From Octopus vulgaris (lineage: Eukaryota): a stretch of 64,000 nt of DNA. Position 1 is the stretch's first letter, and each line of letters starts with the position of its first letter. The position numbers and the translations under genes were made by a program. Under the pieces are notes generated by a model. The model was not told the DNA's origin. It searched no databases and was given only the letters and a program-made list of their open reading frames with translations. Below are positions 1-54,968 of the stretch, piece by piece. The stretch is from assembly GCA_951406725.2 (NCBI GenBank), contig OX597820.1:115878001-115942000 (forward strand), given 5' to 3'.

Positions 1-42
1 CACCTGATGAAGGCTGGAGGGTATATCAGCCGAAAAGTTGTG
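1..42 (+). ncRNA. Minimal type I hammerhead ribozyme (Penelope pLTR type), probably mutated
   Basis: CAC-CTGATGA-A-GGCTG(10 nt)CAGCC-GAAA-A-GTT-GTG. Helix I is CAC/GTG and helix II has 5 bp. Position 36 is A where C is needed to pair with G. Truncated by the window edge. Confidence 0.65.
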
Positions 43-1565
43 TTAACAACAAACATGAGGAGGACAAATATCTGTCAAATGTAAATAATGTAAATAATTC
101 CTCATCTCTTAAATATAGAATGATGTTAATGTTGTTTTAGCCCCAGGAAAACATCTTTTCAAGCTGGCTATCCTAGGGCTAAAACCAACCACTTTACAGA
201 GTGTACTGGGTGCTTTTTATTAGGTTCTGGCAATAGTGAGGTCACTGACTAACTCACAAGATAAGATCCCTTAACTGAGATGGGGAGTAGCATTGAGGGG
301 GACCACTTTATGCCAGGTGATGAGAGGTTAAAGTATGATAAAGGGAAAGAAACAGGTACCTTGCAGTAGAGGAGATATATGGCCACCCCAGCTGGAAAAG
401 GATAGAAGCTGGTGGGGAAGTGTCAGAATGTATTCTCAGCTTATAGGAAGGTGACCATAAGACAAGTGGACCAAAGGATTGGACAGGATGACTGGATATA
501 TCCTGTCCACAAGAGTGTGAGTGGCAGATGATGGATAAAGATAGGGATAGAGGTGAGTGCAGAGATTGTTGAAGACAAGTGGAGACATATTTGATGGTGA
601 ATACCAGATGCTTTGTGGAGGAGAGAAGGTGGAGGCACCAGGAGGTAGAACAGATGATGCGAAGTACTGGTGGTGTGTTTGTGTCAGAAATAATAATAAT
701 TATTATGAGAGTGATATCTGGTGGAATTGGTGGAGCGACAAACTAAGATGCCTTGTGATATTTTGTTAAATATTTTGTTTTGAGTTCAAAACCTGTTTAG
801 TTCAAATTTGCCTTTCACCTTTCTAGGATCAATAAAAACAAGTACCAGTCATATATTTAGGTCAAGTTAACTGACTGTAGCCCTCTGAAATCTGAAAAGC
901 AGTGAATTGGATGATCTTTGATTTTGTCTTTTATCCATGAGATTTATAAATTAAATACCAGTTAAATAATGAAGTTGGTATAATCAACTCTACACCATCA
1001 CAAAACTGATGGTTTTGTGTGTTTATGCTAAAAATTATTATTATTATTGAGTGAGGGTGCAATGCATGCCATCAAATTGACATTGGGGTACAAAAGGGTA
1101 CAACAGGCACATACAGCACAACCATATGTGCGCAACATGGTGATTTCATATCAAGATAAACAGCACATGACCTGGAAGATGGAACCCAGTTAGAATTTTC
1201 TTCAGGTTGAGTAGCCCATCACACTGAAAAGATCTCTGAATAAGGTTTGTTTAAGGATGATGAACGAAACACCCAGGTTTCCAGAGGTGAATTGTTCAAA
1301 CCTACCAAAGAATTCCTCTCAACACATGGTTATGATGTTCCCCCAGTGTTTCTGCTTGTGATCAGAGATACATATATCGTCAGCCACCAAGGGACATGCT
1401 CAACTGGTTAAGGTCAAGCGACTGACAAGCAAATCTGTGGTATTGAGCAGAATATTGGCTGTAGCCCATTTTCCATACCATTATTATTATTATTATTATT
1501 ATTATTATTATTATTATTATTATTATTATTATTATTATTATTATTATCATCATTATTATTTAAGG

Positions 1566-1730
1566 CGCAGGAATGGCCATGTGGTAAAAAGCTTGCTTAC
1601 CAACCACAGTTTTGGGTTCAGTCCCACTGCATGGCACCTTGGGCAAGTGTCTTCTACTATAGCCTAGGGTCAACTAAAGCCTTGTGAGTGGATTTGGTAG
1701 ATGGAAACTGAAAGAAACCCGTCGCATGTA
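1566..1730 (+). mobile_element. tRNA-derived SINE family A, 5' part
   Basis: A-box-like TGGCCATGTGG and B-box-like GGTTCAGTCCC. The body GGCAAGTGTCTTCTACTATAGCC...GGATTTGGTAGATGGAAACTGAAAGAA recurs more than 10 times in the window. Confidence 0.85.
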
Positions 1731-1741
1731 CATATATATAT

Positions 1742-2141
1742 ATTTTACTTGTTTTAGTCATTTGACTGTGGCCATACTGGAGCACTGCCTTTAGTCGAGC
1801 AAATCGACCCCAGGACTTATTCTTTGTAAGCCTAGTACTTATTCTATCAGTCTTTTTTGCTGAACTGCTAACTTACGGGGACGTAAACACACCAGCCTCG
1901 GTTGTCAAGTGATGTTGGGGGGACAAACACAGACACACAAACATATACACACACACATACACACACACATATATACATATATACGACGGGCTTCTTTCAG
2001 TTTCCGTCTACCAAATCCATTCACAAGGCTTTGGTCGGCCCGAGGTTATAGTGGAAGACACTTGCCCAAGGTGCCAGGCAGTGGGACTGAACCTGGAACC
2101 ATGTGGTTGGTAAGCAAGCTACTTACCATACAGCCACTCCT
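1742..2141 (-). mobile_element. SINE family A, near full length
   Basis: Reverse complement of the 44812-45150 copy, including the CAAGTAAAA tail. Confidence 0.85.
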
Positions 2142-2944
2142 ACACCTATATGAAAGAAGGTTTGAAAATGCAATTCTAAAGATGTTTATTCAGTTGACTG
2201 ATTTTACTTTTTTAGAAAAAGATTGTCAAAAGTAAAATGGAAAGCTTTGTATAAGTTTTGTTGTGTGTTTTTTTTTATGTATAAACTTTTACACTAAGAT
2301 CCCACATCAATATGGACTGGAAACCATTGAATTCTGGCTAGAAAAATACTTTTTCTGTTTTGTGTGTATATAAGGAATGTTTGCTATTTTAAGGGACAAT
2401 GTGGGAAGGTGGTTGGGGCAGGGGGAAGGAGCAATGTGGAATTAAAAGGATATTTTTGTTTTTGGGTTAGTTTGTCATGGTTCAGTGATTTTGGGGACTG
2501 GTCTTAGGGGTCAGACTGGTGTGAGTGTGTGTGTCTCTATGCACGTCTCTATGTGTGTGTGTATATATACATATGTTTGTGTGTGTGTGCCGTTTTTTAT
2601 TGGTCTCAGAGTTTATTGTGGCATGTGTATATGGGTCTGTGTATATTTCATATTTGGTAGGATGGTCTGTGTATATGTGTATGTGTGTGATTAATATTTG
2701 TTAGGGTGTTGTGTGTGCGCATGTGTGTATGTGTTTGTTCGCGTATGTGTATGTGTGTGTCTGTGGGTGCGTGTGTATGTTTGTGTGTTTTGTGTTGGTG
2801 GGAATGTTATGTGTGTGTGTGCGTGAGCGTGTGTGTATGTGAGTGTGTGTGTGTGTGTGTGTCTGTCTGTTTGACTATGTTTTGTTATAATTGTCCTAGT
2901 GGTGTTGTGTGTGTGTGTATGTGTGTGTATGTGTTTGTGTAAAA

Positions 2945-53670: not shown

Positions 53671-54390
53671 AAGATCTTTGATGACTAACATGGTACACAA
53701 GGGTTTTTTGTAAATATATTCTGTTACAATGAAGTGTTCAAAATATGTATTCAAGAATACACACACACACATAGATACATACATACATACATACATACAC
53801 ACACACACACACACACATATATATATATATATATATATATATACACATATATACACACATATATACGACAGGCTTCTTTCAGTTTCCATCTACCAAATCC
53901 ACTCACAAGGCTTTGCTTGGCCTGAGGCTATAGTAGAAGACACTTGCCCAAGGTGTCACACAGTGGGTTTGAACCCAGAATCATCTGGTTGGGAAGTAAG
54001 CTTCTTACCACACAACTATATATATATATATATATCAAGTAAAATTTAATTGCCAGCATAGTATGGCTGTCCCTTAAGGGACATTGCTACTGTTTATTAG
54101 CCCCTAGTAACAGTAACAACATCCCTTACAGGACAGCCATACTATGTTAGCAATTTTACTTTAAAGAAATGTTACGGTATGTTTCTCTCTAAGAGATTTA
54201 GAAATAATACTATTTCTATGGAAGACTGTAGGGAATAATTCTTTTATAACTTAAAGGTTTGGTTGCTGTTTAGTTACATATTTAGGAGTTGATTGTAATT
54301 TACTTATTGAATTTATTTACCGATACTGTTGTACATAGGGTAAATATGTTTGAAAGTTGTGGTTTCTTTGGTTTGTTTGTTCCCAAACAG

Positions 54391-54460
54391 CACTTATTTT
54401 GAATGGTACTGCCCAGGTGTCGAAACTATAATGATATCTGTGTGGCAGCTGATGATGGGG
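54391..54460 (+). CDS. Candidate 70-nt exon, possible start ATG at 54403: MVLPRCRNYNDICVAADDG
   Basis: Acceptor TTTGTTTGTTCCCAAACAG and donor GGG|GTATGT. An in-frame TGA lies immediately before the ATG. Product not recognised. Confidence 0.45.
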
Positions 54461-54588
54461 GTATGTTGGATTGTTGGTATGGCTGTTTTTCTATATGTGG
54501 AATAGTATTATAATACATCCTTTTGATATATATATATATATATATATATATACATACATATATATATATATATATATATACATACATA

Positions 54589-54799
54589 CAGGGTGGCTAC
54601 TAAGTCCCGCACCATTGGAGATATCAAGTATGCTTTATTAGCAATGAAGTGGCTTATCCATTACAAATGTTCAATATCTGCTTCCATCCAACGAGGATTG
54701 GTTTGTGAGTAATATCAGAAGTTGTGAAAAGAGATAAAAAAAGGAAATGTTAGCAATTTCACATATTGCAGGATGGTGTGTGATTTTATGGCCATCCTA
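54589..54799. mobile_element. Tc1-type MITE
   Basis: TA-CAGGGTGGCTACTAAGTC..CACCA versus TGGTG..GATTTTATGGCCATCCTA-TA. Confidence 0.6.
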
Positions 54800-54934
54800 T
54801 ATGTGTGTGTGTGGTGTGTGTGTGTATGTGTGTAGAGAGAGAGAATTCACAAAAAAAAAACAAGAAAAGATGAAGACTAGTGGTGTAGACAACAAACAGA
54901 TGTATTAGTATAATGCTCAGGAAGTGAAAAAGTT

Positions 54935-54968
54935 TTTAATGTTTCGAGCCTATGCTCTTCTACAGAAA
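54935..54968 (-). ncRNA. Hammerhead-like fold with a CUGUAGA core in a solo pLTR-like repeat (about 54843-55015)
   Basis: TTT-CTGTAGA-A-GAGC atag GCTC-GAAA-CA-TT-AAA. Confidence 0.5.

What the first reader, a model, noticed from the sequence alone, without database searches (positions are those of the whole stretch)
1..54968. Nine hammerhead-ribozyme folds of several designs in 64 kb: a dense, diverse Penelope/retrozyme-like ribozyme population
Seen: CUGAnGA-helix II-GAAA-helix III-UH folds at 1-42(+), 12311(-), 15547(-), 18420(+), 25168(-), 25467(+), 48156(+), 53626(-) and 54935(-). Two sit directly 3' of GIY-YIG Penelope remnants. The rest are in short non-coding inserts, mostly beside microsatellites. 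Known: Penelope pLTRs and retrozymes carry minimal type I hammerheads that often work as dimers. Inference: about one per 7 kb, from at least six sequence families, implies a very large and poorly catalogued ribozyme repertoire in this genome, spread as short solo elements.
Basis: partly seen in the sequence, partly recalled or inferred. Interest (0 to 1): 0.75.

Follow-up and report, generated by a model that had tools for sequence, protein, structure and literature searches.

The report
Dense Penelope hammerheads, many variant cores
All nine motifs are copies of hammerhead-shaped RNAs at the tail ends of eight abundant jumping-gene families, and this animal genome likely holds a few hundred thousand such copies, most of the intact-looking ones with altered catalytic letters that standard searches would miss; whether they cut RNA is untested.

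Summary
Confirmed, with corrections. All nine sites are minimal type I hammerhead folds belonging to eight dispersed repeat families; five further sites lie in the window. As single copies, four keep a canonical core, two carry their family's variant core, and three have core-breaking mutations. Four families trace to Penelope-like elements (Penelope/Poseidon-, Neptune-type and Hydra clade). One is a 476-nt non-coding, retrozyme-like unit; three remain unlinked. So the 'solo inserts' are mostly 5'-truncated retroelement tails. In 0.8 Mb sampled across the genome, folds were far above chance (22 versus 0 in 8 shuffles). Family copies ran at 81 per Mb (one per 12 kb; about 150,000-310,000), so this window is a local high. 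Fourteen of 22 intact-looking folds carry U4C, A6U or U3-A8 cores that are shared by whole families or subfamilies. One U4C family is a recently active element with intact ORFs. The class is published (Cervera and de la Pena 2014); the scale and the prevalence of variant cores are the additions. Cleavage is untested. The scan has noted variant cores in another genome, and a tRNA-headed Penelope and a tandem unit in this one.

The parts
1..44 (+). F1 minimal hammerhead (canonical core, C3=4, predicted cut after 39; helix I begins 2 nt before the window; helix III palindrome ACGU mutated to AAGU). 3' end of a Penelope/Poseidon-type element; tail runs to about 121.
   Evidence: 20 of 30 loci have an inverted upstream partner, 0 downstream
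2193..2232 (-). Unlisted decayed hammerhead of family N1 (U3-A8 core; G12A in this copy)
12311..12369 (-). F4 hammerhead (canonical core, C3=12363, 6-bp helix I, A on both sides of helix II, AUCC-A-GGAU palindrome; helix II weakened in this copy). Part of a 476-nt non-coding head-to-tail unit (retrozyme-like), ending at a (TA)n array.
15547..15609 (-). F8 hammerhead with U4C core (C3=15603, predicted cut after 15553), identical to the recently active family
15513..16578 (-). 5'-truncated, 5'-inverted copy of the Hydra-clade Penelope-like element F8; endonuclease part of the ORF at 15794-16441; followed by (TA)n at 15452-15520
17350..18418 (+). Broken Neptune-type GIY-YIG endonuclease C-terminus (tblastn core 17496-17630) and 3' UTR of family F6; left end approximate
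18419..18454 (+). F6 hammerhead; family core UUGAAAA (U3-A8), this copy C3 opposite A8; only 2 bp of helix I; ACCGGU palindrome
25168..25290 (-). F5 hammerhead (canonical core, C3=25287, about 98-nt helix II domain, A on both sides, ACGGCCGU palindrome, 3-bp helix I). A second CUGAAGA at 25227 inside helix II is not kept in older relatives.
25466..25501 (+). F7 hammerhead; family core CCGAAGA (U4C); this copy also G12A; lies between (TA)n arrays
28964..29002 (+). Unlisted hammerhead of family N3 (U3-A8 core, intact relative to its family)
34644..34733 (+). Unlisted, heavily decayed copy of old family F2
38213..38264 (+). Unlisted, heavily decayed copy of old family F2 (weak match, E 1e-5)
48153..48189 (+). 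F2 hammerhead, decayed (helix II broken, U16.1C)
48957..48995 (-). Unlisted F2 hammerhead, decayed (UH lost)
53625..53671 (-). F2 hammerhead, canonical core, wobble-rich helices; the only site passing the strict descriptor
54935..54968 (-). F3 hammerhead; family core CUGUNGA (A6U); 3' end of a Neptune-type element

Best explanation
The nine folds are copies of minimal type I hammerhead motifs from the 3' ends of eight repeat families, four of them tied to Penelope-like retroelements, and they were likely spread by Penelope reverse transcription that starts just 3' of the motif and stops early. Shown: family membership, links to Penelope ORFs (F1, F3, F6, F8), fixed 3' ends, inverted 5' partners, (TA)n or (AAT)n neighbours, helix covariation between families, palindromic helix III, and copy-level decay. 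Inferred: because copying starts in the tail, nearly every insertion, however short, carries the hammerhead, which explains the density. In source elements with two same-strand copies (pLTR-ORF-pLTR in F8, 2579 nt apart; the 476-nt tandem unit of F4) two motifs would pair through the helix III palindrome and cut slowly after H17. Solo genomic copies lack that partner and mostly decay neutrally. The U3-A8, U4C and A6U cores were carried by source elements that kept amplifying, so they are likely tolerated, slow-cutting forms rather than damage.
For: Random 0.8 Mb: 35 descriptor hits versus about 1.9 per shuffle; 22 versus 0 in 8 shuffles when any single core substitution is allowed. With palindrome and H17 left free, 20 of 22 real hits have a palindromic helix III and 0 of 22 have G17, versus 1 of 12 and 4 of 12 in shuffles. 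Helix I: 22 of 24 first-three pairs form in the eight family majorities; 4 of 40320 re-pairings do as well. U3 and A8 appear together (3 hits) and never alone among the 22. F1 follows an RT (YVDD)-endonuclease ORF: head, B box or hammerhead lie downstream in the 30 loci, and 17 of 30 matched the hammerhead pattern. F8 has a 717-codon open frame with RWK, DKT, YKDD, CxCx5C, CxxC and CxH, flanked by two identical U4C hammerheads (L379), and all 40 scored matches are 100% identical over 379 bp. F6 has a Neptune-type endonuclease 605-765 nt upstream at 5 hits (4 independent loci); F3 has one in L072 through a UTR shared with L068 and L087. Inverted upstream partners: F1 20 of 30, F6 6 of 30, F8 5 of 30. 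U6 persists through a deep clade while N7 takes all four bases. Literature: PMC4209133, PMC8557442, PMC11167929.
Against: No cleavage data of any kind. F2, F5 and F7 could not be tied to an ORF. F6 has only 2 bp of helix I and F5 only 3. The family majorities come from searches biased towards the window copy (F1 and F3 majorities show its broken palindromes), and pairing was part of how the sites were first chosen. In the anole element, hammerhead mutants still insert in vitro and no RNA-seq reads ended at the cut site (PMC11167929), so conservation need not mean cutting. The predicted lowest-energy folds of most single copies are not the hammerhead fold. The polarity of U4/C4 in the F7 group is unresolved: a U4 subclade is nested in C4 copies.
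Confidence: 0.85

Rival explanations
1. The variant-core families (U4C, A6U) are catalytically dead pseudo-ribozymes. The fold is kept as a binding or priming signal for the Penelope protein, or simply hitchhikes.
For: A6 and U4 changes lower activity (A6C below 0.1 per min; U4C considerably reduced in vitro; PMC3088659). Cleavage was not needed for insertion in vitro (PMC11167929). In F8 the sequence shows that C4 lets CCGAAG pair fully with CUUCGG in loop II, a competing stem.
Against: In these families the other core positions, H17 not G and the palindrome stay fixed while N7 and the flanks change. Of all single substitutions allowed, only U4C and A6U recur, plus the compensatory U3-A8. U4C supports viroid infectivity in vivo (PMC3088659).
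Confidence: 0.3
2. The population is mainly a set of independent non-autonomous short elements (retrozymes or SINE-like units) that amplify on their own transcripts.
For: F4 is a 476-nt non-coding head-to-tail unit. Most F3 and F7 copies are a few hundred nt long. F1 5' ends pile up near the start of an A-box/B-box segment: 9 of 31 full-tail and 7 of 18 short-tail copies within 12 nt in the search set.
Against: Long members of F1, F3, F6 and F8 run into Penelope ORFs. Same-strand partners are rare (0-3 of 30 loci per family), unlike tandem retrozymes. The F1 pile-up also fits fold-back at a natural hairpin, and only 2 of 14 random-sample copies end there.
Confidence: 0.2
3. The folds are chance matches in AT-rich, repeat-rich DNA.
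For: Single copies are imperfect, only 1 of 9 passes a strict descriptor, and Rfam shows no hammerhead hit.
Against: Shuffles give 0-0.4 hits per 0.8 Mb against 22; the reversed-sequence control gives 0; unbiased family copies restore the broken pairs and core bases.
Confidence: 0.01

Closest known systems
Minimal type I hammerheads (min-HHRs) of metazoan Penelope-like elements (Cervera and de la Pena 2014, PMC4209133; main text parts 1-3 of 4 read, supplement searched)
   Same: CUGANGA, extra base before G10.1, G10.1-C11.1, palindromic or absent helix III, short helix I; many families per genome; mostly single copies ascribed to truncated elements; inverted pairs 100-700 bp apart; the U3-A8 variant. 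F1, F3 and F7 match the published layout 'CUGANGAH G..C GAAA CG UH'.
   Different: Sampled density of 81 per Mb versus about 9,000 motifs in Xenopus tropicalis and 4,000 in coelacanth (their counts used a strict descriptor, so they are not directly comparable). U4C and A6U cores are shared by whole families, and F4, F5 and F8 have an extra base on the 3' side of helix II; I did not see these in the parts read. No octopus entry in their supplement.
Hydra clade of Penelope-like elements, incl. Hydra-1_Obim (Craig et al. 2021, PMC8557442; passages, section 11 and supplement rows read)
   Same: F8: under 3 kb, C-terminal endonuclease, RWK, DKT, CxCx5C, CxxC, CxH, no GxKF/Y, (TA)n targets, 3' hammerhead. 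An octopus member is already listed.
   Different: F8 has pLTR tandems and near-identical copies, and its hammerhead has C4; older relatives have U4. Identity to Hydra-1_Obim was not tested.
Metazoan non-LTR retrozymes (Cervera and de la Pena 2020, PMC7229834, passages; Li et al. 2026, bioRxiv 10.64898/2026.07.22.740005, parts 1-2 of 5)
   Same: F4: non-coding unit of a few hundred nt with a type I hammerhead, head-to-tail permutation, presumed Penelope mobilisation.
   Different: F4 occurs mostly as truncated or inverted single units (2 of 30 loci with a same-strand partner); no RNA evidence here; the other seven families are not of this build.
Natural hammerhead core variants (Perreault et al. 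2011, PMC3088659; passages and section 8 read)
   Same: U3-A8 and U4C are known natural variants; position 6 variation is known as A6C.
   Different: There they are described as rare; here they make up 14 of 22 intact-looking folds in a genome sample. A6U was not in the passages read.
Schistosoma SM-alpha SINE-like hammerhead elements (as reviewed in PMC6765202, section 11 part 2)
   Same: A polymerase III-type promoter followed by a hammerhead resembles the F1 tail.
   Different: In F1 the A/B-box segment lies inside the 3' UTR of a coding Penelope element. Neither Rfam nor ARAGORN recognised it as tRNA.

Membership tests
Minimal type I hammerhead (PLE min-HHR) | Core CUGANGA...GAAA...UH | tested here: met
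   Canonical in family majorities F1, F2, F4, F5; U3-A8 in F6; single-base variants in F3 (A6U), F7 and F8 (U4C)
Minimal type I hammerhead (PLE min-HHR) | Helices I and II with covariation | tested here: met
   22 of 24 helix I pairs across eight families, 4 of 40320 re-pairings as good; F6 has only 2 bp
Minimal type I hammerhead (PLE min-HHR) | Palindromic helix III region for dimer formation | tested here: met
   20 of 22 unconstrained hits versus 1 of 12 in shuffles; broken in the window copies of F1, F3, F7
Minimal type I hammerhead (PLE min-HHR) | Self-cleavage after H17 as a dimer | not testable with these tools
   Only contigs of runs not on record as RNA were available
EN+ Penelope-like element | RT plus C-terminal GIY-YIG ORF upstream of the hammerhead | tested here: met
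   Met for F1 and F8; endonuclease part only for F3 and F6. Pfam support is weak (GIY-YIG E 0.008-0.011, below cut-off)
EN+ Penelope-like element | ORF link for F2, F5, F7 | tested here: inconclusive
   No shared upstream path to an ORF; isolated endonuclease neighbours only
EN+ Penelope-like element | Inverted 5' partner, optional 3' tail, partial tandems | tested here: met
   (inversions); F1 ends at about +95 or +122 from C3; F8 two 3' ends and tandems
Hydra clade (F8) | RWK, DKT, CxCx5C, CxxC, CxH; no GxKF/Y; under 3 kb; (TA)n target | tested here: met
   no tree was built
Non-LTR retrozyme (F4) | Non-coding head-to-tail unit with type I hammerhead | tested here: met
   476-nt unit in L116; L099, L096 and others read through into the previous unit
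Non-LTR retrozyme (F4) | Expressed as monomeric linear and circular RNA | not tested
   No reads were laid on F4
tRNA-derived SINE (F1 short copies) | tRNA-derived head transcribed by polymerase III, amplifying apart from the coding element | tested here: inconclusive
   A- and B-box-like motifs and a 5'-end pile-up, but no Rfam or ARAGORN tRNA call, and the head lies inside the coding element's 3' UTR

The most novel reading that the evidence does not exclude
In this genome most source-intact hammerheads use non-canonical cores (U4C in at least four unrelated families, A6U across a deep clade of tens of thousands of copies, U3-A8 in several families). These are selected, deliberately slow ribozymes that let part of the retroelement RNA stay uncut for copying, making a six-figure, mostly invisible repertoire of attenuated catalytic RNAs and a natural library for mapping what the dimeric hammerhead core tolerates.
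Probability: 0.25. Interest if true: 0.65.

Novelty: new variant of a known kind. Interest (0 to 1): 0.43.

Why it matters
It puts a number on how much of a large invertebrate genome is hammerhead-derived (about 80 per Mb, a lower bound) and shows that CUGANGA descriptors would miss about two thirds of the intact-looking folds in the sample. A recently active, ORF-intact Hydra-clade element whose two hammerheads both carry U4C, next to older U4 relatives, makes an open question directly testable: does hammerhead cleavage matter for Penelope retrotransposition, and how slow may it be?

Tried and rejected
Rfam at E<=5 showed no hammerhead family among 150 of 159 rows; this says little about such short motifs. 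Window self-BLAST linked none of the sites, because the families are distinct or too old. The first genome search with 15525-15640 found nothing, not even itself; a longer query found the family. Sequencing runs: no RNA holder listed; four contig sets laid on F8 could not show RNA ends or strand, so they give no evidence on expression or cleavage. Rfam and ARAGORN did not call the F1 head a tRNA. A PDB sequence search of the F8 ORF found nothing. I first read F8 as Nematis-type from memory and rejected that after testing the Hydra motifs. A second CUGAAGA at 25227 was considered as a nested second hammerhead and rejected, because older relatives lack it. Apparent Hydra-type endonucleases upstream of some F3, F4 and F7 copies were judged chance neighbours, because the intervening sequence is not shared. 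Lunse et al. 2017 (about 150,000 Penelope-associated variants, recalled) was not held; it and supplement file S2 of PMC8557442, which I did not view, may already show U4C, A6U or octopus examples. bioRxiv supplements are closed.
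Full report
Setting. The window is G000:C7:115878001-115942000 of a 2.8-Gb animal genome. It is rich in microsatellites (73 tandem-repeat rows) and interspersed repeats. From recalled repeat make-up it is likely an octopus; no call names it.

Observation. All nine coordinates mark ends of hammerhead-like arrangements. Single copies are mostly imperfect. A strict canonical descriptor passed only 53663. One allowing the bulges and variant cores passed 3 of the 9 plus an unlisted site at 28968, against a mean of 0.1 in 100 window shuffles. 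Four copies keep a canonical core (C3 at 4, 12363, 25287, 53663), two carry their family's variant (15603, 54965), and three have lesions (18422, 25470, 48156). Rfam showed no hammerhead among 150 of 159 rows.

Families. Genome searches placed each site in a dispersed family: F1 (site 4; 40 scored of 1013 candidates, 93-96% identical), F3 (54965; 3133 candidates), F4 (12363; 1838), F5 (25287; 450), F6 (18422; 2060), F7 (25470; 3360), F8 (15603; 931, all 40 scored 100% identical over 379 bp) and the old F2 (48156, 53663; about 75% identity). These searches favour copies like the query. Family cores: CUGANGA in F1, F2, F4, F5; CUGUNGA in F3; UUGAAAA in F6; CCGANGA in F7 and F8. Family models found 14 sites in the window, five of them new.

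More than chance. I took 80 stretches of 10 kb at fixed 25-Mb steps on C1-C20 and C22 (799,800 called bases). A four-core descriptor gave 35 hits versus about 1.9 per shuffle; its variant cores had been chosen from the window families. An unbiased version allowing any single core substitution gave 22 versus 0 in 8 shuffles: U4C 7, canonical 6, A6U 4, U3-A8 3, G12A 1, A13U 1. With palindrome and position 17 left free, 20 of 22 hits were palindromic and none had G17, versus 1 of 12 and 4 of 12 in 30 shuffles. Across the eight family majorities 22 of 24 helix I pairs form, and 4 of 40320 re-pairings match that (partly circular, since the sites were picked for pairing).

Density. Twenty-one family models gave 73 raw hits in the sample and 0 in reversed sequence. 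After dropping hits that miss the core or overlap on the other strand, 65 remained: 81 per Mb (bootstrap 54-111), one per 12 kb, about 150,000-310,000 in the genome. This counts decayed copies and both arms of inverted pairs. It includes two singletons that may be chance and models seeded from the sample. It omits undiscovered families and the rewired hammerheads that other notes report. F2, F4 and F6 had no hit in the sample. Intact-looking folds are 28-44 per Mb. A 64-kb stretch with 9 or more has probability about 0.16, and with 14 or more about 0.02; the 80 kb beside the window hold 4. The window is therefore a local high, largely through five F2 copies.

Origin. F8 is a Hydra-clade Penelope-like element. 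L377 and L379 hold a 717-codon open frame with RWK, DKT, YKDD, CxCx5C, CxxC and CxH, and L376 and L379 carry two same-strand hammerheads 2579 nt apart (clade features from PMC8557442 section 11; an octopus Hydra family is listed there). F1 follows an RT (YVDD)-endonuclease ORF without the linker zinc finger, so Penelope/Poseidon-type. Its 3' UTR holds an A-box/B-box segment, an (AAT)n tract, then the hammerhead; 20 of 30 loci have an inverted upstream partner and none a downstream one. F6 lies 605-765 nt behind a C-terminal endonuclease with the CxxCxxC-type linker (Neptune-type), including in the window; F3 does so in L072 through a UTR shared with L068 and L087. F4 is a 476-nt non-coding head-to-tail unit with the same kind of fixed 3' end and inversions. 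F2, F5 and F7 were not linked to an ORF; F7 is sister to F3 in a tree of 53 copies. Clade names rest on motifs, not trees, and Pfam support is below cut-off.

Mechanism. Shown in print for an anole element: reverse transcription starts inside the RNA at two sites that define the tail; its hammerhead cleaves, but cleavage is not needed for insertion in vitro (PMC11167929, passages). Minimal hammerheads were inactive as monomers and weakly active as dimers (PMC4209133). Inferred here: copying starts a short way 3' of the hammerhead and usually stops early, so almost every insertion carries one. In tandem source transcripts two motifs would pair through the palindrome and cut slowly. Solo copies then decay: in 20 F1 copies not taken from the biased search, non-CpG core sites differ by 4.2% versus a flank median of 5.9%, and 8 of 20 keep all 11 core bases. 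Selection shows between subfamilies instead. In the F3 clade N7 takes all four bases and H17 is A or U while U6 and the rest stay fixed (19 of 24 keep the family core).

Variant cores. U4C occurs in the F7 group, F8, N4 and N5; N5 also lies behind an endonuclease in both its copies. Older F8 relatives have U4, but in the F7 group a U4 subclade is nested among C4 copies, so direction is open. U3-A8 occurs in F6, N1 and N3, and in two singletons. U3-A8 is reported for schistosome elements (PMC4209133); U4C and A6C are known, weakened natural variants (PMC3088659). Against function: the lowest-energy folds of most single copies are not the hammerhead, and the variant families could be dead signals.

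Novelty. The class, its abundance, single-copy occurrence and inverted pairs are published. Searches for hammerhead ribozyme plus octopus, self-cleaving ribozyme plus cephalopod and two searches for tRNA- or polymerase III-linked Penelope hammerheads returned no study of this population, judged from listings. A 2026 octopus repeat annotation mentions Penelope expansions and 31 recently active Penelope-like families, with no occurrence of 'ribozyme' or 'hammerhead' in its main text (PMC13282606, passages). PMC10886601 was searched and was not relevant. Lunse et al. 2017 could not be read and may cover these variants. Earlier scan notes report variant cores in another genome, and a tRNA-headed Penelope and a tandem unit in this one; I reached these readings before opening them and do not count them as support.

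Verdict. A real, dense population of a known kind, mostly fossil tails of Penelope-like elements. The prevalence of family-level core variants, and an active element to test them in, are what is worth following. Interest 0.43.

Noticed in passing
Just upstream of window position 1 (L031 about 1050-1500); L032-L060, L321-L350: The F1 Penelope element carries an A-box/B-box, tRNA-like segment in its 3' UTR, preceded by a short natural hairpin; many copies begin there and are joined head to head with an inverted copy. It could be a polymerase III promoter or a fold-back site.
   Followed up: partly
window 34644-53671: Five copies of the old family F2 lie within 19 kb, versus 0 in 0.8 Mb of sampled DNA, 0 in the 80 kb beside the window and 1 in 120 kb beside six other F2 loci. 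Unexplained local cluster.
   Followed up: partly
L379 (G000:C26:20798000-20806000), L377: Full-length Hydra-clade element with an open 717-codon frame, in L379 between two identical U4C hammerheads; likely able to transpose.
   Followed up: partly
window 2943-4300 (+): Broken Penelope-like RT N-terminus and Neptune-type endonuclease; no hammerhead was found behind it.
   Followed up: no
window 12329-12330, 25182-25183, 15565-15566 (-); L266: F4, F5, F8 and N6 have an extra base between helix II and G12 (A on both sides in F4, F5, N6), outside the published minimal consensus.
   Followed up: partly
window 15575-15603 (-): In F8 the C4 core strand CCGAAG can pair fully with CUUCGG in loop II, a possible off-state fold.
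   Followed up: no
L099: One F4 copy begins 5 nt after the predicted cut site of the preceding unit, as expected if the template were a self-cleaved monomer; a single case.
   Followed up: no
window 13901-14215 (-), 16560-16961 (-), 41389-41826 (-), 11314-11649 (+): Fragments resembling Tc1/mariner transposases, a LINE reverse transcriptase and a C2H2 zinc-finger tail (weak Pfam hits for two; the others recalled).
   Followed up: no
L257 6935-7706; L285 (-) 878-1531: Same-strand hammerhead pairs about 363 nt (N4, U4C core) and 545 nt (N7) apart: further retrozyme-like or pLTR tandem units.
   Followed up: no
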